A stretch of DNA of 64,000 nt from a virus. Below, piece after piece: positions 8,867 to 13,588 of this stretch. Below the pieces are notes generated by a model. The model worked only from the letters and a program-made list of their open reading frames with translations, searched no databases and was not told the DNA's origin. The stretch spans positions 32,001-96,000 of the IMG/VR virus record IMGVR_UViG_3300009093_000036, one strand, 5' to 3'. The first letter of the stretch is position 1. Every line of letters starts with the position of its first letter. The position numbers were made by a program, and so were the translations under genes.

Positions 8867-10093
8867 TTACAGGTTCAGGCCCGGGACGCCGGCGGCGAGA
8901 TTGAGGGCTCCATCCGCCTGTCGAATGCCGAAGCTTCCGAAGAGCTGAATGCCGGCGAAGGCGGCTCGACCCAGCAACAGGTAGTTGGCACTTGGACGAC
9001 CGACGTTGACCCCTAGCTTCGCGAGCTGGCCACGGGCCTGGTTGTCGAGCTCCTCGGGGCTGTTCAGACGAAGGAGCTCCTGGACGCGGTTGAGCTCCTC
9101 CTGGTCGTACTGCGGCTGTGTGGTGTCGTGGACGAACGCTGTGTACTCGTCCTTCTGCTGCCAGATCGGGACACGCTCACCGTTCGACCCAGGAGCGGAC
9201 GGGAAGCTCGCCTGGTTCTCGATCGGCGGGACGTAGAGCTGGTTGCCGATGCCCTTGTTCGGGAAGGCGAGGCTGCGGCCGTAGAGCGTGTTCTTCGCCT
9301 GCTCGATCGCACGCTGGATCGTGAACGTCGCATCGTTCGCGAACCGCTGAGCGTCGGCGAGGAAGCCGGTGAGGCTGTCCTGATTGCCCAAGGACGACTG
9401 GACATCCGCGGTCGCTGCCGGGTCGTCCGGAGGAACGGTCGTGGGCGTCGGTCCGGGCGTCCGATCCGCCATCTCGTCGTTGTAGATGGGCGAGAAGATG
9501 CTGCCGACGTCGCCGATGATCGAGTAGTTCGTGCAGAACACCTGGAACGTCAGCGGGAGCTTGTACGGGTCCTCGACTGTCTGCACCGCCTGCGCCTGGA
9601 GCATGTAGCCCTCGATGACGACGTCATCGAAGTACAAGTACATCCGGGCGTTGCGTTCGAGCAGCTTCGTTCCTCGCAACGTGTCGTTGTAGTTCTTCCA
9701 CCACTCCGACTTCCAGTTGAAGTTCCGTGCGTTCAGGATGACAGCGTTGAAGGTGTAGATGCGGGGGCGCTCTCCGAAGAAGAAGATGTAGTCCTCTCCG
9801 AAGGTCTCCACGATCTGCTGCTTCTCGACGCGCTGCTCCTGAACGGACTGAAGGATGAAGTTCGAGTACTCGATGCTCTGACCGATGCCGTTGACATCAG
9901 TGGCGCTGCTGCTGTCGACGAGCGGGATGGGGCGACCGACGGCGTCGATGACCTTGATCGTGGCGTAGGTGTCCTTCTTCACCTCGATGCCACGCGTCGG
10001 TCGCCGCACGTTCTGTGAGGTACGGGTCTCCTGCGCGGCGTCGTTGAAGACGTCCTCGAAGGGAGAGGTCGTAACGCTGATGAAGACCGCCAC
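8867..10093 (-). CDS. putative tail-tube-fold baseplate/tail protein, 408 aa
   Basis: EKQQIVETFGEDYIFFFGERPRIYTF segment resembles tube-fold baseplate proteins; lies between hub and tape measure. Confidence 0.5.
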   Translation of the reverse strand: MAVFISVTTSPFEDVFNDAAQETRTSQNVRRPTRGIEVKKDTYATIKVIDAVGRPIPLVDSSSATDVNGIGQSIEYSNFILQSVQEQRVEKQQIVETFGEDYIFFFGERPRIYTFNAVILNARNFNWKSEWWKNYNDTLRGTKLLERNARMYLYFDDVVIEGYMLQAQAVQTVEDPYKLPLTFQVFCTNYSIIGDVGSIFSPIYNDEMADRTPGPTPTTVPPDDPAATADVQSSLGNQDSLTGFLADAQRFANDATFTIQRAIEQAKNTLYGRSLAFPNKGIGNQLYVPPIENQASFPSAPGSNGERVPIWQQKDEYTAFVHDTTQPQYDQEELNRVQELLRLNSPEELDNQARGQLAKLGVNVGRPSANYLLLGRAAFAGIQLFGSFGIRQADGALNLAAGVPGLNL

Positions 10094-10101
10094 GCCGGAA
10101 T

Positions 10102-10109
10102 CCTATCAG
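10102..10109 (+). promoter_or_regulatory. CCTATCAG motif overlapping a divergent TAGGAT -10 box
   Basis: 34-bp divergent intergenic region between 10093 and 10128. Confidence 0.55.
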
Positions 10110-10127
10110 GAAGCTGAGGAAGCATCC

Positions 10128-11123
10128 ATGCCGCGCGCAGAACGACCGGAGCGAGCCTTCAAGGCTTGGTCCGACGTCGAAGTCGACAAGCTCAGCTTCT
10201 GGTGGGGCGTCTTCTCCATCCAGACGATCGCAAAGCGCCTCGGCAGAACCCCGGCCGGCGTATCAGAGAAAGCTCGCAAGACGAAGTTGGGGGCCTTCGC
10301 CCAAGACACCATCTCGATGAGAGAGTTCGTACGCTTGAGCGGGTACGAGGACTCTCGCATCCTCGCCAGCGCAGAGGCCATCGGTATCAAGCTCCAGCGC
10401 ATCGGCGTCGGGAACCCGAAGCGTCCGAAGGCGAAGAGGGCCTACGCAATCACCGAGGAGCAGCAAGAGAAGCTGCTCGCACACTTCGCAGAGCATCCGA
10501 ACACCTTCTATCCGAACAAGCCCGGCTCCGGTAAGACGACCCAGGGCGTCTGGGGCATCGGCCGGAAGCCTCCGCAGTGCCTCGACTGCAAGAGAAACGA
10601 CAGACCTCACTACTCCAAGGGCTTGTGCGATGGCTGCTACCAGAAGGTCATGCGCAGCAACCGAAAGAAGAACATGAACAACCCGCCGATTACCCACTTC
10701 CAGGGGAGCTACCGCTTCCTGTCGAACTTCTTTCCCGCCACCATCACGTTCGGAGGACTGAAGTACTACAGCGTCGAGCACGCCTTCCAAGCCGCCAAGA
10801 CGTTGGACCCTGTGAAGAGGGCCCCGCTCACCTTCGCACATGGCACCGAGCTGAGCTGGAATCCCGGCAAGGCGAAGGTGTACGGGCGCAGTCTCGAACT
10901 TCGTCCTGATTGGGAGGACGTCAAGTTCAAGGTGATGGGGCAGCTCCTTCGCGAGAAGTTCACGGAGCACGCCGATCTCGGGAAGAAGCTGATCGCCACT
11001 GGAACCCGCGAGCTCATCGAAGGCAACTACTGGGGCGACCGCATCTGGGGTGTCTGCGACGGCGAGGGGGAGAACCGCCTCGGCAAGTTGCTGATGGAGA
11101 TTCGAGAGGAACTACAGAAATGA
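10128..11123 (+). CDS. HTH-like/Zn-ribbon - NADAR (YbiA/DUF1768) fusion, 331 aa
   Basis: C-terminal FLSNFF, SVEHAFQAAK, DWEDVK..VM, EGNYWGDRIWG, NRLGKLLM; central CxxC...CxxC. Confidence 0.85.
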   Translation: MPRAERPERAFKAWSDVEVDKLSFWWGVFSIQTIAKRLGRTPAGVSEKARKTKLGAFAQDTISMREFVRLSGYEDSRILASAEAIGIKLQRIGVGNPKRPKAKRAYAITEEQQEKLLAHFAEHPNTFYPNKPGSGKTTQGVWGIGRKPPQCLDCKRNDRPHYSKGLCDGCYQKVMRSNRKKNMNNPPITHFQGSYRFLSNFFPATITFGGLKYYSVEHAFQAAKTLDPVKRAPLTFAHGTELSWNPGKAKVYGRSLELRPDWEDVKFKVMGQLLREKFTEHADLGKKLIATGTRELIEGNYWGDRIWGVCDGEGENRLGKLLMEIREELQK

Positions 11124-11668
11124 CTACGCCCGAAGAGAAGATCAAGAAGCTCGACTTCACGAAGGTAACGCGGGACGCCGACAAGACGCGCACCAGGATT
11201 CTCATCAAGCCCCGCTACGGGATGCAGAGCTTGGAGATCGTGTGTGGTCGCACCAACCTGAACCGCAACCGAGACCGTACGCCTTCATACGAACGGCTCA
11301 CGGCCCGGGCTTCATACGGTGTCATCGACTTCGAGCACGACAGCGCGTACATCTTCCAGATCCCGCTCGTCGGTGTAGCACTCGACTTTGTCGAAAACTC
11401 GACCGTCTACTACAGCGGGATCCTGTTGGGACGCGACCCCGAAGACCTCCGCATCTCGTTGGACACCGACTACGATCCGACGAAGCTGAAGGGCGCCTAC
11501 AAGTGCAACGGGAAGGAGTGTCGCTCAGGCAAGTCGCACATGATCGTTCCCGAAGGGTACTGGGCGGGCCCGGAGATGAAGGTCCAGACCCTCTACTTGC
11601 AGCTCGTTGGTGCCGAGGTTTCCGTGATCTTGAGCACGCCAAGCAAGGAGGACCCTGACCACGGCTGA
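11120..11668 (+). CDS. hypothetical protein, 182 aa
   Basis: ATGA overlap with NADAR gene. Confidence 0.7.
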   Translation: MTTPEEKIKKLDFTKVTRDADKTRTRILIKPRYGMQSLEIVCGRTNLNRNRDRTPSYERLTARASYGVIDFEHDSAYIFQIPLVGVALDFVENSTVYYSGILLGRDPEDLRISLDTDYDPTKLKGAYKCNGKECRSGKSHMIVPEGYWAGPEMKVQTLYLQLVGAEVSVILSTPSKEDPDHG

Positions 11669-11675
11669 GACGCCT

Positions 11676-11746
11676 GCCCCCGTAGCTGAGCGGGAAAGCA
11701 GCGGATTCTAAATCCGTGGTCGTGGGTTCGATCCCCACCGGGGGCG
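11676..11746 (+). tRNA. tRNA with CUA anticodon (amber suppressor-type)
   Basis: acceptor GCCCCCG/CGGGGGC, D-arm with GG, anticodon stem GCGGA/TCCGT with loop TT-CTA-AA, 4-nt variable loop, T-arm GTGGG-TTCGATC-CCCAC, G73, no encoded CCA. Confidence 0.9.
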
Positions 11747-11768
11747 AGCAGAAGCAATCACGTTTCTT

Positions 11769-11776
11769 CCTATAAA
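11769..11776 (+). promoter_or_regulatory. CCTATAAA promoter-like motif variant
   Basis: upstream of 11816 start, just after the tRNA. Confidence 0.45.
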
Positions 11777-11815
11777 ACAGATAGAAGAGACAACCTCTTC
11801 CGGAGAAACACGAAC

Positions 11816-12241
11816 ATGAACCAGAACATTCAGAAGGTCCTTCAGCTCGGCGCCCTCATCGATCGCAACAACGAGACGGTTCGCCGACTTCAAGAAGAGA
11901 ACAAGCAACACATGGAGGTCATCGAGTCCCTCGTGGTCCACAAGAGGGACAACCAGCGTCCCTCGAAGAAGATCGAGGACCGTCTCGTCAAGCAGATCAA
12001 GCGCGCCTTCTTCCGTTCGGAGGAGGAGTACGAGAAGACGATCGTCCAAGCGCTCAAGGGCGGGCCTCCCCTCTGCCGTGCGGACTTGGTGCGAAAGACT
12101 CACATCTCGATGAAGACGCTGGCCAAGCTGATGCCACGGCTGGCCGAACGAAACGTGGTGAGGCCCGTGTCAGCCCTCAAGAAGCTGAGTGACGGGCGTG
12201 AGATCAAGGTGCAGGGATGGTCCGCCGGAAAAGCGGCCTGA
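11816..12241 (+). CDS. coiled-coil plus winged-HTH protein, 141 aa
   Basis: C-terminal CRADLVRKTHISMKTLAKLMPRLAERNVV resembles MarR-type wHTH. Confidence 0.6.
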   Translation: MNQNIQKVLQLGALIDRNNETVRRLQEENKQHMEVIESLVVHKRDNQRPSKKIEDRLVKQIKRAFFRSEEEYEKTIVQALKGGPPLCRADLVRKTHISMKTLAKLMPRLAERNVVRPVSALKKLSDGREIKVQGWSAGKAA

Positions 12242-12888
12242 ACTACCCCGGAGACAACCCGCAGAAGGCCGACTCCCGCAACCTGCTCTACCGGACCGTG
12301 ATGTCTTACTGGAAGGCCGCCAAGCCTTCTGGAGACATCATCGTCTTGGCAGGGCATGAAGCGAAGGACGTCGGCCCTCTGCGAGATTATCTTCGGTGGC
12401 CGGCATCTCGCGTCCTTTTCGTGGACATCGACGAACGAGGACTGACCCAAGCTCAGAAAGACTGGCCAGGCGTACGTGTTCATCACGGCGACCTCAGCGA
12501 AGCCGTCAAGCAGGTCAAGCAGATCGCATTGCTGAACTTGGACTTCATGGGCAGCTTCAACGATGACGTGGAGGCTGCCCTGACTGCGGCTGAGGGAAAA
12601 GTCAGTCCACATGGGGTGGTCGCGTACACGTTCTACCGAGGAAGAGAGCACCGATCTCAGCATTCCTTGCAGAAGAACTTGTTCGCAGCTCGCCGTCACA
12701 TCGACCTGAAGAGCTCCGACTACGAGACGATGCGCTGGGTGGCAGCAGGGGCACGACTACAGCGTGGTCTCGTGTTCGAGAACCCTGAGCTCCTGTTGAC
12801 CCATCGCTATCGTTCATCGAGTGCAGCCATGGGCATGCTGGCCATCGCCAACGAGCCGAAGGCCAAGGGGAGTCGACGCAGCAGGTGA
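12217..12888 (+). CDS. putative class I SAM-dependent methyltransferase-fold protein, 223 aa
   Basis: spacing of IIVLAGHE, VLFVDID, HHGDL, LLNLDF fits Rossmann MTase motifs I-IV. Confidence 0.45.
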   Translation: MVRRKSGLNYPGDNPQKADSRNLLYRTVMSYWKAAKPSGDIIVLAGHEAKDVGPLRDYLRWPASRVLFVDIDERGLTQAQKDWPGVRVHHGDLSEAVKQVKQIALLNLDFMGSFNDDVEAALTAAEGKVSPHGVVAYTFYRGREHRSQHSLQKNLFAARRHIDLKSSDYETMRWVAAGARLQRGLVFENPELLLTHRYRSSSAAMGMLAIANEPKAKGSRRSR

Positions 12889-13163
12889 CGTCCCTGCGGA
12901 GACACAGCGATCGCAGTGAGGGCGTTTCCGAGATCGGGTTCCAAGAACTCGGACACGGGAACGCCCTCTGCGCGCGCAGACGAAACGACTCGGCGAAGTT
13001 CTTCTTCGTTTGCCGTCTCCAGAAGCACGAGCGTGTTGGATGTCGTGAACCACTCCCGGTCCACGGCAGGATGCTCCTCCGTGAACGCGCGGATGGCGTG
13101 ACAGAGCTGCGCCGCTCGGAGTCCCGGAGCGAGGTCCTGTCGCGAGACCAGGAAGAGCTTCAT
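12807..13163 (-). CDS. peptidyl-tRNA hydrolase Pth2-like protein, 118 aa
   Basis: KLFLVSRQDL..GLRAAQLCHA, NTLVLL, EPDLGNALTAIAV. Confidence 0.7.
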   Translation of the reverse strand: MKLFLVSRQDLAPGLRAAQLCHAIRAFTEEHPAVDREWFTTSNTLVLLETANEEELRRVVSSARAEGVPVSEFLEPDLGNALTAIAVSPQGRHLLRRLPLAFGSLAMASMPMAALDER

Positions 13164-13588
13164 GCGGCCCTCCGGGGACGCCCAGAGGCCTTCATCTCGC
13201 GAGCTCTTTCCTTTGCCTGCCGGAGATGCTCGGCGTACGACGCGAGCTCCTCGTCGCTGGGCTTGGCCTCCAGCCACGCCTTCACCGCACCCTCGTCGAC
13301 GTCAGCCCCCGCCCAGTAGGCGACGCTGCTCGCGCTGGGCGGCTCCTTCGTGAAGCGCTCGACCTCCCAGTACCTGCGCCCGCGCACGAAGGCGTACGCG
13401 AGCCCCGTGTACCGAATCTGCGAGCGCAGATCGGAGCCATGGCCCCAACACATGAGCATGGTGCTGTGCTGCTGTGCCGTGCGCTCCGCGAACGGGATGC
13501 GCTTGAGCGAGAGGCGCTCCTGAGTGTTGGCGACCTTCGACTTCACGAGCTCACCGAGCTCGAACTTCAGAACCATCTTCTCTTTCAT
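13160..13588 (-). CDS. hypothetical protein, 142 aa
   Basis: AGGAG SD, ATGA overlap with Pth2-like gene. Confidence 0.7.
   Translation of the reverse strand: MKEKMVLKFELGELVKSKVANTQERLSLKRIPFAERTAQQHSTMLMCWGHGSDLRSQIRYTGLAYAFVRGRRYWEVERFTKEPPSASSVAYWAGADVDEGAVKAWLEAKPSDEELASYAEHLRQAKERAREMKASGRPRRAA

What the first reader, a model, noticed from the sequence alone, without database searches (positions are those of the whole stretch)
11676..11746. Amber-suppressor tRNA (anticodon CUA) in a genome that still uses TAG as stop
Seen: a full cloverleaf whose only pairable anticodon stem (GCGGA/TCCGT) leaves the loop TT-CTA-AA, with G73 and a short variable loop. Standard-code ORFs already tile the window, and by my manual count about 12 of ~115 genes end in TAG. 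Known: suppressor tRNAs are described mainly in low-GC gut phages that fully recode TAG; G73 and U35 are GlnRS identity elements in E. coli. Inference: partial, timed amber readthrough to make extended phage proteins or to disrupt host TAG-terminated genes, rather than a full code change.
Basis: partly seen in the sequence, partly recalled or inferred. Interest (0 to 1): 0.82.

Follow-up and report, generated by a model that had tools for sequence, protein, structure and literature searches.

The report
Phage amber-suppressor tRNA, standard code
A 195-kb soil phage that uses the normal genetic code carries, as its only tRNA, a well-conserved tRNA that reads the UAG stop codon; such tRNAs are already known from other large phages, their purpose is still unknown, and here it sits in a small accessory gene island rather than rewriting the phage's code.

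Summary
Window 11676-11746 (+) is a canonical tRNA with anticodon CUA (ARAGORN; Rfam 66.7 bits), and it is the only tRNA in a complete 195-kb, 62.5% GC phage genome. The genome reads in the standard code: 95% coding, with stops TGA 213, TAG 32 and TAA 11, and reading TAG as sense gains nothing. A sister phage (core proteins 93-97% identical) has a CUA tRNA at the same place that is only about 80% identical. All nine stem substitutions keep pairing (four compensatory double changes), and the anticodon loop and G73 are unchanged. The gene is therefore under selection and is not a sequencing error. It lies in a 3.5-kb accessory island (NADAR, two unknowns, a methyltransferase-fold protein, PTH2) that a more distant relative lacks. 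The body resembles phage tRNA-Lys(CUU). I found no release factor, synthetase or CCA enzyme, no coding signal behind TAG stops, and no amber-gated neighbour gene of the kind this scan reported beside CUA tRNAs on other DNA. Published precedents exist (XacN1, Atu_ph07, phiKp24), so this is a new member of a known kind whose function is unresolved. New lead: a CUA tRNA directly behind a NADAR gene recurs in two or three other standard-code phage lineages.

The parts
11676..11746 (+). tRNA with anticodon CUA (amber suppressor type), G73, no encoded CCA; the only tRNA of the 195-kb genome
   Evidence: ARAGORN; Rfam RF00005 66.7 bits; syntenic diverged copy with compensatory changes in G001
10080..11123 (+). 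g44: protein with a C-terminal NADAR domain (ADP-ribose N-glycosidase family); first gene of the same-strand run g44-g45-tRNA
   Evidence: Pfam PF08719, E 1.5e-24; 82% identical homologue directly upstream of the tRNA in G001
11120..11668 (+). g45: 182-aa protein of unknown function; its stop lies 7 nt before the tRNA; absent from G001
   Evidence: gene call; no Pfam or PHROG hit; no tblastn match in G001
11747..11815 (+). spacer after the tRNA holding a repeated phage motif (CTATAAAACAGATAGAAGAG...), probably the start of the next transcription unit
   Evidence: sequence; window 11761-11800 matches two places in G001 at 86-93%; related to the promoter motif noted by e1-5817135, which was not tested here
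11816..12241 (+). g46: 141-aa protein of unknown function (51% identical in G001)
   Evidence: only sub-threshold family hits
12217..12888 (+). 223-aa protein with a class I SAM-methyltransferase fold, substrate unknown; missed by my gene caller because it overlaps PTH2 tail to tail by 82 nt
   Evidence: sequence; 6-member family without Pfam; AlphaFold pLDDT 80; Foldseek probability 1.0 to many methyltransferases, tRNA methyltransferases among them
12807..13163 (-). g47: PTH2-type peptidyl-tRNA hydrolase (TAG stop here, TAA in G001)
   Evidence: Pfam PF01981, E 4.2e-8, above the cut-off; present only in the two suppressor-bearing genomes out of four complete relatives
13160..13588 (-). g48: 142-aa protein of unknown function, overlapping the PTH2 start by ATGA
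   Evidence: gene call; no family
10080..13588 (.). accessory island as a whole: in relative G006 the flanking core genes g43 and g49 are adjacent
   Evidence: tblastn synteny map

Best explanation
This is a working amber-suppressor tRNA gene kept by selection in a phage that otherwise uses the standard code. SHOWN: it is a canonical tRNA with a CUA anticodon. It is conserved with pair-preserving changes in a sister phage. It is the sole tRNA of the genome. It lies at the 3' end of a same-strand gene run (NADAR-g45-tRNA) inside a 3.5-kb accessory island that also holds a methyltransferase-fold protein and a PTH2 peptidyl-tRNA hydrolase. The phage encodes no release factor, no Glu/Gln-, Phe/Pyl-type synthetase and no CCA-adding enzyme. 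INFERRED: the precursor is cut out of the operon transcript by host RNase P and 3' nucleases and gets CCA from the host enzyme. A host synthetase that keys on U35 then charges it; lysyl-tRNA synthetase is most likely, because the body is tRNA-Lys(CUU)-like with A31-U39, and glutaminyl-tRNA synthetase is the alternative (G73, C34, U35, A37). It then competes with RF1 at UAG codons and causes partial readthrough in the infected cell. Neither the phage's own TAG stops nor its gene starts show any adaptation to it, and it travels with counter-defence-type accessory genes. I therefore favour a trans-acting accessory role, meaning either host- or defence-directed readthrough or buffering of amber mutations, over a role in building phage proteins. 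Its target is unknown.
For: It is a tRNA with anticodon CUA. It is the sole tRNA in G000 and in G001. Selection is visible in G000 vs G001: 2-71 C-G to G-C, 3-70 C-G to U-A, 30-40 G-C to A-U, 31-39 A-U to U-A and 27-43 G-U to G-C, with no stem-breaking change, an invariant UUCUAAA loop and G73, while core proteins are 93-97% identical. Across 13 phage CUA tRNAs, 14 of 18 pairs show compensatory changes. The code is standard. The island structure is shown, and NADAR and PTH2. PTH2 co-occurs with the suppressor. No RF-1 domain, Glu/Gln-tRNA synthetase, CCA enzyme or PylRS/PheRS-type domain was found, and the controls ring. The body is Lys-like: 81% to Atuin tRNA-Lys(CUU), and family member L232 is 87% identical to Streptomyces phage tRNA-Lys(CUU). 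LysRS and GlnRS both key on U35 and compete for amber suppressors, and A31-U39 favours Lys (PMC1483225). There is no adaptation of the phage's own TAGs.
Against: There are no expression, charging or suppression data. G73 replaces the A73 of all Lys tRNAs and of most CUA family members, so the amino acid is uncertain. The host is unknown and may lack GlnRS. 32 phage genes end in TAG, including the terminase, a topoisomerase subunit and PTH2 itself, so efficient suppression should cost the phage something. No tandem back-up stops are seen (median extension 53 codons). The 'accessory or counter-defence' reading rests on gene neighbourhood only.
Confidence: 0.6

Rival explanations
1. Programmed readthrough of phage genes: the tRNA makes C-terminally extended or fused phage proteins, or opens a gene that carries an early in-frame UAG, as proposed for other orphan CUA tRNAs in this scan.
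For: 11 of 23 TAG-ended genes with a same-strand downstream neighbour run in frame and open into that neighbour, against 22 of 97 for TGA (Fisher p=0.017). The g163/g162 pair is split by TAG here and joined by CAG in G001. An in-frame ATG-CGC-TAG lies four codons before the ATG of the 722-aa InPase-domain gene g208 in G000 and G001 but not in suppressor-less G006.
Against: Against the proper 1/3 null the in-frame excess is not significant (p=0.11), because TGA is forced out of frame by ATGA/GTGA overlaps. Most in-frame neighbours have their own SD and ATG, with TAG embedded in GGAG-TAG or TAG-GAG contexts. Extensions that do not enter a neighbour have negative coding scores. TAG and TAA interchange (8 cases), and stop-to-sense switches are no commoner at TAG (1/27) than at TGA (6/175). 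No early-UAG gene lies near the tRNA in this or the other NADAR-linked loci. About one ATG-N-TAG leader is expected by chance among 256 gene starts.
Confidence: 0.15
2. Evolutionary way-station to or from TAG recoding (the Borges et al. model: stop-codon depletion, then suppressor acquisition, then in-frame stops).
For: Suppressor tRNAs do occur in standard-code relatives of recoded phages (10.1101/2021.08.26.457843).
Against: The preconditions of that model are absent: GC is 62.5%, TAG is not depleted (12.5% of stops, commoner than TAA), and no gene is interrupted by TAG. The state is stable across two diverged genomes. No RF2 gene is present.
Confidence: 0.07
3. Non-decoding role: the tRNA acts as a decoy or inhibitor for a host tRNA-targeting defence nuclease or modifying toxin, or as an RNA processing or stability element for the NADAR transcript, and CUA is merely tolerated.
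For: Each complete relative keeps exactly one tRNA but of a different kind (CUA, CUA, Asn-GUU, Val-UAC). This looks like a host-specific accessory slot, as described for counter-defence tRNAs. The body is Lys-like, and tRNA-Lys is a classic anticodon-nuclease target (my own knowledge). It is linked with NADAR, PTH2 and a methyltransferase-fold protein.
Against: The anticodon loop YUCUAAA is invariant across lineages with 33-62% GC, while stems co-vary. This argues that decoding of UAG itself is what is selected. A CUA tRNA cannot replace a depleted sense tRNA.
Confidence: 0.1
4. Neutral passenger, pseudogene or assembly artefact.
For: It sits in a mosaic, fast-changing region (g45 absent and g46 only 51% identical in G001). 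No function is demonstrable in silico.
Against: The tRNA score is high, all nine stem substitutions preserve pairing, the anticodon is the same in an independent assembly, and related CUA tRNAs occur in many phages.
Confidence: 0.03

Closest known systems
Suppressor tRNAs of cultured standard-code jumbo phages: Xanthomonas phage XacN1 (two CUA genes per terminal repeat; PMC5852040), Agrobacterium phage Atu_ph07 (UCA; PMC6102473), Klebsiella phage phiKp24 (UUA; PMC8386662), Sinorhizobium phage Phosso (annotated tRNA-Pyl(cta))
   Same: A phage-encoded stop-reading tRNA in a genome that still uses that stop codon, with hosts of ordinary code. For XacN1, in-silico readthrough also found no target. 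The XacN1 and Phosso tRNAs align with this one, with the same T arm and the loop CUCUAAA.
   Different: Those phages carry 26-56 other tRNAs, and the suppressor sits in a tRNA array. Here it is the only tRNA, lies in a small accessory island with NADAR and PTH2, and its conservation with compensatory changes is documented.
Suppressor tRNA(CUA) of TAG-recoded ('code 15') phages: crAss-like, Lak and others (10.1101/2021.08.26.457843; PMC9523058)
   Same: The same kind of molecule, and the same presumed dependence on host synthetases that recognise U35.
   Different: Those genomes are low-GC, have few TAG stops and have in-frame TAGs in late and lysis genes; some encode RF2. None of this holds here.
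Laboratory amber suppressors derived from tRNA-Lys or tRNA-Gln (supE-type; E. coli identity rules as summarised in PMC1483225)
   Same: A single anticodon change away from a sense tRNA (CUU to CUA for Lys, CUG to CUA for Gln). U35 is shared as the key identity element.
   Different: This is a natural, phage-borne, long-conserved gene rather than a recent mutant. Its identity set is mixed (A31-U39 and a Lys-like body, but G73; G2-C71 only in G001).
Orphan phage CUA tRNAs paired with an 'amber-gated' neighbour gene, as reported by earlier follow-ups of this scan (e1-125904, e1-5370691, e1-5813026, e1-5813320 and others)
   Same: A standard-code large phage with a lone CUA tRNA. One of those reports also has a tRNA-hydrolase-like gene beside the tRNA, as PTH2 is here.
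   Different: The defining early in-frame UAG in an adjacent conserved gene was looked for here and not found. PTH2 here starts normally, with the Pfam match beginning at residue 1.

Membership tests
Canonical elongator tRNA (Rfam RF00005) | Cloverleaf with a 7-bp acceptor, D arm with G18 G19, 5-bp anticodon stem, 7-nt loop with U33 and a purine at 37, T arm with the UUCGA loop | tested here: met
   Full-length match 1-71/71 at 66.7 bits against a gathering score of 29; ARAGORN; sequence
Amber suppressor tRNA (functional class) | Anticodon CUA at positions 34-36 in the only canonical register | tested here: met
   the loop UU-CUA-AA is conserved in G001
Amber suppressor tRNA (functional class) | Is expressed, matured, aminoacylated and inserts an amino acid at UAG in vivo | not testable with these tools
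   Indirect support only: pair-preserving evolution
tRNA-Pyl / pyrrolysine system (ARAGORN's label) | Atypical tRNA (6-bp anticodon stem, 3-nt variable loop, short D loop without G18 G19, one base between the acceptor and D stems) plus a pylS synthetase | tested here: not met
   The sequence shows U8 A9, G18 G19, a 5-bp anticodon stem and a standard T loop (the Pyl features are from my own knowledge). No PF01409 synthetase core in G000 or G001, and the controls ring
TAG-recoded (code 15) phage system | Low coding density and fragmented genes under code 11, repaired by reading TAG as sense | tested here: not met
   95.1% coding under code 11 against 94.3% with TAG as sense
TAG-recoded (code 15) phage system | TAG rare or absent as a true stop; RF2 often encoded | tested here: not met
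   32 of 256 genes end in TAG; no RF-1/PCRF-type domain
tRNA-Lys(CUU)-derived suppressor | Body closest to tRNA-Lys(CUU), differing in the anticodon by U36A | tested here: inconclusive
   The best full-length database matches are phage tRNA-Lys(CUU) at 75-81%, and family member L232 is 87% identical to Streptomyces phage tRNA-Lys(CUU). Bacterial tRNA-Arg(CCU) reaches the same 81%
tRNA-Lys(CUU)-derived suppressor | Discriminator A73 (a Lys identity element; PMC1483225) | tested here: not met
   G73 in the window and G001; A73 in L039, L232, Phosso and all the Lys(CUU) tRNAs compared
tRNA-Gln-type suppressor (supE-like) | E. coli GlnRS set: U1-A72, G2-C71, G3-C70, G10, Y34, U35, A37, U38, G73 (PMC1483225) | tested here: inconclusive
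   Met: G10, C34, U35, A37, G73. Not met: G1-C72, C2-G71, C3-G70, A38. G001 has G2-C71. One TAG/CAG orthologous exchange proves nothing on its own
Amber-gated gene + suppressor tRNA cassette (earlier findings of this scan) | An adjacent conserved gene with an in-frame UAG within its first few codons | tested here: not met
   Genome-wide and island scans in G000, G001, L039, L232, L233, G007 and G008 found only one distant, weak candidate, g208

The most novel reading that the evidence does not exclude
NADAR followed directly by tRNA(CUA) is a recurrent, possibly mobile two-part phage module, extended here by a methyltransferase-fold protein and PTH2. In it, UAG readthrough works together with ADP-ribose removal and peptidyl-tRNA recycling to neutralise a host abortive-infection system that attacks translation, for example a toxin acting at stop codons or on tRNA/RNA. 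The same adjacency (same strand, less than 60 nt apart) occurs in standard-code phage contigs of 33%, 42% and 45% GC that are otherwise unrelated to this one.
Probability: 0.12. Interest if true: 0.8.

Novelty: new member of a known kind. Interest (0 to 1): 0.5.

Why it matters
Stop-reading tRNAs in phages that have not changed their genetic code have been noted for years (XacN1 in 2018, Atu_ph07 in 2018), and nobody knows what they are for. This case strips the problem down. There is one tRNA in 195 kb, it is demonstrably under selection, there is no code change, no helper synthetase or release factor, and no obvious phage target. The tRNA sits in a swappable accessory island next to genes of counter-defence flavour. 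That argues that such tRNAs are accessory weapons or insurance rather than parts of the phage's own decoding. The relatives give natural controls, because the same backbone carries Asn, Val or no suppressor. If the NADAR linkage holds up in a systematic survey, it would give the first contextual clue to their function.

Tried and rejected
(1) Megablast and tblastn of the window against the cultured-phage collection found no close relative.

(2) An exact anticodon-arm pattern in IMG/VR found nothing.

(3) A strict 5'-half pattern with a free anticodon found no match in 185,579 prokaryote species genomes. The relaxed pattern found only Arg(CCU) and Thr(CGU), at 81% identity or less. By my own slip it required A39, which the window tRNA lacks, so neither host nor origin could be read from cellular tRNAs. 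There was no E. coli match.

(4) Programmed fusions are not significant against the 1/3 null.

(5) TAG stops are not avoided in codon-adapted genes (p=0.6).

(6) The tmRNA is not a partner of the suppressor, since it is also present in G006, which has no suppressor.

(7) An amber-gated neighbour gene was not found.

(8) Phosso's gene upstream of its CUA tRNA is not a NADAR, and no cultured phage showed NADAR plus tRNA in one match.

(9) The NADAR tree is too poorly resolved to tell one origin of the NADAR-tRNA pair from several (the careful search did not finish, so the quick tree was used).

(11) The fold of the 223-aa protein is a generic methyltransferase fold and names no substrate.

Full report
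WHAT IS THERE.
ARAGORN finds exactly one tRNA in the 64-kb window, at 11675-11747 (+) with anticodon cta. Rfam's tRNA model matches 11676-11746 over its full length at 66.7 bits, against a gathering score of 29. The sequence folds as a textbook class I cloverleaf:
- acceptor GCCCCCG/CGGGGGC, U8 A9, D stem GCUG/AAGC with G18 G19;
- anticodon stem GCGGA/UCCGU, loop UU-CUA-AA, a 4-nt variable loop;
- T arm GUGGG/CCCAC with UUCGAUC, discriminator G73, and no encoded CCA.
ARAGORN's label 'tRNA-Pyl' only translates the anticodon. The molecule has none of the oddities of tRNA-Pyl, and neither genome has a PylRS-type catalytic domain.

THE GENOME.
The window belongs to a single 195,355-bp contig, 62.5% GC, rated complete. 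It encodes a terminase, major head protein, tail sheath, DNA polymerase, helicase, UvsX-like recombinase and topoisomerase II, so it is a large contractile-tailed phage. Earlier notes of this scan call it an uncultured soil phage. In the whole genome there is only this one tRNA, plus a tmRNA (Rfam 154 bits).

High GC makes raw ORF lists useless, so I trained a codon log-odds model on the long ORFs and called genes with it. Under the standard code this gives 256 genes and 95.1% coding density, with stops TGA 213, TAG 32 and TAA 11. Reading TAG as sense gives 241 genes and 94.3%. Reading TGA as sense collapses the annotation. The phage therefore uses the standard code, and TAG is a working stop in one gene in eight, including the terminase, a topoisomerase subunit and the PTH2 gene next to the tRNA.

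IS THE tRNA UNDER SELECTION?
A second complete phage genome, IMGVR_UViG_3300049792_000048 (G001; 195,774 bp with terminal repeats), has core proteins 93-97% identical to this one. It too has one tRNA, anticodon CUA, plus a tmRNA. Its tRNA lies at the syntenic place, directly behind the NADAR gene.

The two tRNA genes are only about 80% identical, much less than the backbone. Every stem difference preserves pairing:
- 2-71 C-G to G-C;
- 3-70 C-G to U-A;
- 30-40 G-C to A-U;
- 31-39 A-U to U-A;
- 27-43 G-U to G-C.
The T stem, the loop UUCUAAA and G73 are unchanged. That amounts to nine stem substitutions, none disruptive, with the anticodon held. This is the signature of a functional tRNA whose anticodon matters, and it rules out a sequencing error. 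An alignment of 13 phage CUA tRNAs gathered here shows compensatory changes at 14 of 18 predicted pairs.

WHERE IT SITS.
The stop of g45 lies 7 nt before the tRNA, and g44 (C-terminal NADAR domain, Pfam E 1.5e-24) precedes g45 on the same strand. The tRNA is thus the last element of a g44-g45-tRNA run. The spacer behind it carries a repeated phage motif and probably starts the next unit.

Downstream lie four genes:
- g46, function unknown;
- a 223-aa ORF that my caller had missed (12217-12888), which folds as a class I SAM-methyltransferase;
- a PTH2-type peptidyl-tRNA hydrolase, convergent with it (12807-13163);
- g48, function unknown.

In a more distant complete relative (G006; terminase 77% identical) the core genes g43 and g49 are adjacent. 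Window 10080-13588 is therefore a 3.5-kb accessory island. The region is mosaic even between the two sister phages: g45 is absent from G001, and g46 is only 51% identical.

Among the four complete genomes of the group:
- PTH2 occurs only in the two that have the suppressor;
- the tmRNA occurs in three, including the suppressor-less G006, so it is not tied to the tRNA;
- NADAR occurs in three.

Each of the four genomes has exactly one tRNA, but of different identity: CUA, CUA, Asn-GUU (G006, one gene slot away, between g41 and g43) and Val-UAC (G005, elsewhere).

WHAT IT DEPENDS ON.
Neither G000 nor G001 encodes an RF-1-type release-factor domain, a Glu/Gln-tRNA synthetase core, a class II Phe/Pyl-type core or a CCA-adding enzyme. 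The same searches ring in the control genomes. Maturation, CCA addition and charging must therefore come from the host.

WHICH AMINO ACID?
The short variable arm excludes Ser, Leu and bacterial Tyr. The best full-length database matches are phage tRNA-Lys(CUU) genes (Atuin 81%, Jace 77.5%, Microbacterium phages 74-77%) and a Caulobacter-phage tRNA-Arg. A family member found independently of its tRNA sequence (L232) is 87% identical to the tRNA-Lys(CUU) of Streptomyces phages, differing in the anticodon by U36A. The family thus looks Lys(CUU)-derived.

All those Lys tRNAs and most CUA members have A73, whereas the window and G001 have G73. By the E. coli rules summarised in PMC1483225, LysRS (U34, U35, U36, A73; favoured by A31-U39) and GlnRS (U35, Y34, A37, G10, G73, G2-C71, G3-C70, U1-A72, U38) both key on U35 and compete for amber suppressors. 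The window tRNA has a mixed set. My estimate is Lys 50%, Gln 35%, other 15%.

Cellular genomes gave no help. No genome of 185,579 species matches the 5' half with any anticodon. A relaxed pattern found only Arg(CCU) and Thr(CGU), at 81% identity or less. Arg is unlikely because both A20 and C35 are missing (the Arg identity elements are from my own knowledge).

DOES THE PHAGE USE IT ON ITS OWN GENES?
I tested four ideas.

(i) Extended proteins. For the TAG-ended genes whose readthrough does not enter the next gene, the extension has negative coding scores. There is no enrichment of nearby back-up stops.

(ii) Fusions. 11 of 23 TAG-ended genes with a same-strand neighbour downstream are in frame and open into it, against 22 of 97 for TGA (p=0.017). 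TGA is pushed out of frame by ATGA/GTGA overlaps, however, and against the natural 1/3 expectation the excess is not significant (p=0.11). Most of these neighbours have their own SD and ATG, with the TAG embedded in GGAG-TAG or TAG-GAG.

(iii) Conservation. Between G000 and G001, TGA is kept at 157 of 175 alignable stops and TAG at 17 of 27. There are five TAG-to-TAA and three TAA-to-TAG exchanges, and one TAG/CAG exchange (the g163/g162 pair, which is one open frame in G001). No outgroup has this gene, so the direction of that change is unknown. Stop-to-sense switches are as common at TGA.

(iv) Amber-gated genes. Earlier follow-ups of this scan report, in other phages, a conserved gene with UAG among its first codons next to an orphan CUA tRNA. 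I searched both genomes and all the NADAR-linked loci for a start codon, a TAG within 12-15 codons, and then a long coding frame. Nothing convincing lies near the tRNA. The only conserved hit is an in-frame ATG-CGC-TAG four codons before the ATG of g208 (722 aa, InPase domain), 98 kb away. It is present in G000 and G001 and absent from G006. Its TAG doubles as the AGGA of the real start, readthrough would add only six residues, and about one such motif is expected by chance.

In addition, TAG stops are not avoided in the best-adapted genes. A head/tail block has 0 of 27 TAG stops against 16 of 78 in a block of small genes, but that contrast was chosen after seeing the data (p=0.01).

In sum, I see no sign that the phage's own coding is built around this tRNA.

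WHAT IS KNOWN.
Borges et al. (10.1101/2021.08.26.457843) treat suppressor tRNAs in standard-code phages as a step towards recoding in low-GC gut phages whose TAG or TGA stops are already rare. That does not fit here. Cultured standard-code phages with suppressor tRNAs are on record:
- XacN1 has CUA genes and 18 amber stops, and in-silico readthrough found no target (PMC5852040).
- Atu_ph07 has a UCA suppressor (PMC6102473).
- phiKp24 has a UUA suppressor (PMC8386662).
- Phosso carries an annotated 'tRNA-Pyl(cta)'.
The kind is therefore known, and its function is open. This case adds three things: the suppressor as the sole tRNA, direct evidence of selection, and the island context.

A NEW LEAD: NADAR.
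An unrelated 8-kb contig of 42% GC (L039), found through the tRNA's T arm, has a stand-alone NADAR gene ending 18 nt (ORF coordinates) before its own CUA tRNA. I then collected 80 phage NADAR loci without reference to tRNAs. Twelve have tRNAs within 1.5 kb. Of the three with a tRNA directly downstream on the same strand, two are CUA (L232, 45% GC, where it is the only tRNA in a 69-kb contig; L233, 33% GC) and one is Pro-UGG. These contigs read as standard code.

L039 and L232 share wider synteny (a RecA-like gene, a 154-aa ORF, NADAR, then the tRNA) and may be one lineage. That leaves three or four lineages in all. The link is not universal: Phosso's upstream gene is not a NADAR, and XacN1's suppressors sit in a tRNA array. 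The NADAR tree cannot tell one origin from several. The Aravind-group survey notes that phage NADAR genes lie in early host-manipulation and RNA-repair regions, but it does not mention suppressor tRNAs (PMC9503650). My rough odds that the adjacency is chance are between 1 in 100 and 1 in 1000, but the test was framed after the fact, so I give it as a lead and not a result.

VERDICT.
This is a genuine amber-suppressor-type tRNA, maintained by selection, in a standard-code, high-GC phage. It is carried in an accessory island with NADAR, a methyltransferase-fold protein and PTH2, and it depends wholly on host enzymes. It most likely inserts Lys or Gln at a fraction of UAG codons during infection. 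Its target is unknown. The evidence speaks against genome recoding, against programmed extension of phage proteins, and against the gated-neighbour arrangement seen elsewhere. I lean towards a trans-acting accessory role. It is a new member of a known kind, and of moderate interest.

Noticed in passing
G000 genome 129510-129899 (-), outside the window (L004:13510-13899); also G001:139307-139692 and G006:66988-67385: The phage encodes a full-length tmRNA (Rfam RF00023, 154 bits; ARAGORN tag ANDSSYAQPVLANAA). It is present in three of the four complete relatives, including one without the suppressor, so it is a lineage trait that is independent of the CUA tRNA.
   Followed up: partly
L172:1500-1574 (G006) and L171:1501-1575 (G005): Every complete genome of this phage group has exactly one tRNA, but of a different identity: CUA (G000, G001), Asn-GUU (G006, between the g41 and g43 homologues, next to the island slot) and Val-UAC (G005, elsewhere). 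A single, swappable tRNA per genome looks like a host-specific accessory, not codon-usage tuning.
   Followed up: partly
L039:6913-7450; L232:1489-2040; L233:1498-1985; L009:5830-7132: A CUA tRNA lies directly behind a NADAR gene (same strand, 0-54 nt apart) in standard-code phage contigs of 33-60% GC. Of the three tRNAs found directly downstream of 80 NADAR genes, two are CUA.
   Followed up: partly
window 12217-12888 (+): A 223-aa ORF with strong codon bias and no Pfam or PHROG hit folds as a class I SAM-methyltransferase but lacks an obvious GxGxG motif. It overlaps the convergent PTH2 gene by 82 nt. There are five homologues in public data: the G001 copy plus four others (P0004-P0007), three on short contigs and one on a 30-kb contig.
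   Followed up: partly
G000 genome 142061-142078 (-) (L005:6061-6078), upstream of g208: A two-codon mini-ORF, ATG-CGC-TAG, lies in frame four codons before the start of a 722-aa InPase-domain protein. The motif ATG CGC TAG GAT CGC G is the same in G001 and absent from G006, which has a plain GGAG site. It could be chance, a lambda-bar-like minigene, or a weak amber-gated alternative start.
   Followed up: partly
G000 genome 111548-111904 (-) (L003:15548-15904): Genes g163 (49 aa) and g162 (65 aa) are separated by one TAG here, but form a single 118-codon open frame with CAG at that position in G001. The gene is absent from G005 and G006, so the direction of change is unknown.
   Followed up: yes
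G000 genes g209-g235 (genome about 142-166 kb): The head/tail block has no TAG stop in 27 genes, against 16 of 78 in the block of small non-structural genes (72-112 kb). The contrast was chosen after seeing the data (p=0.01). TAG use shows no relation to codon adaptation.
   Followed up: partly
The first lies just before g42 (8345). A looser variant follows the tRNA at about 11770-11790.
   Followed up: no
G000 genome about 110286 (stop of g158) and about 135309 (stop of g200): Two TAG stops sit inside hairpins. At g158 the TAG lies in a terminator-like stem followed by a T run. At g200 the TAG is in the loop of CGGAGT-AG-ACTCCG.
   Followed up: no
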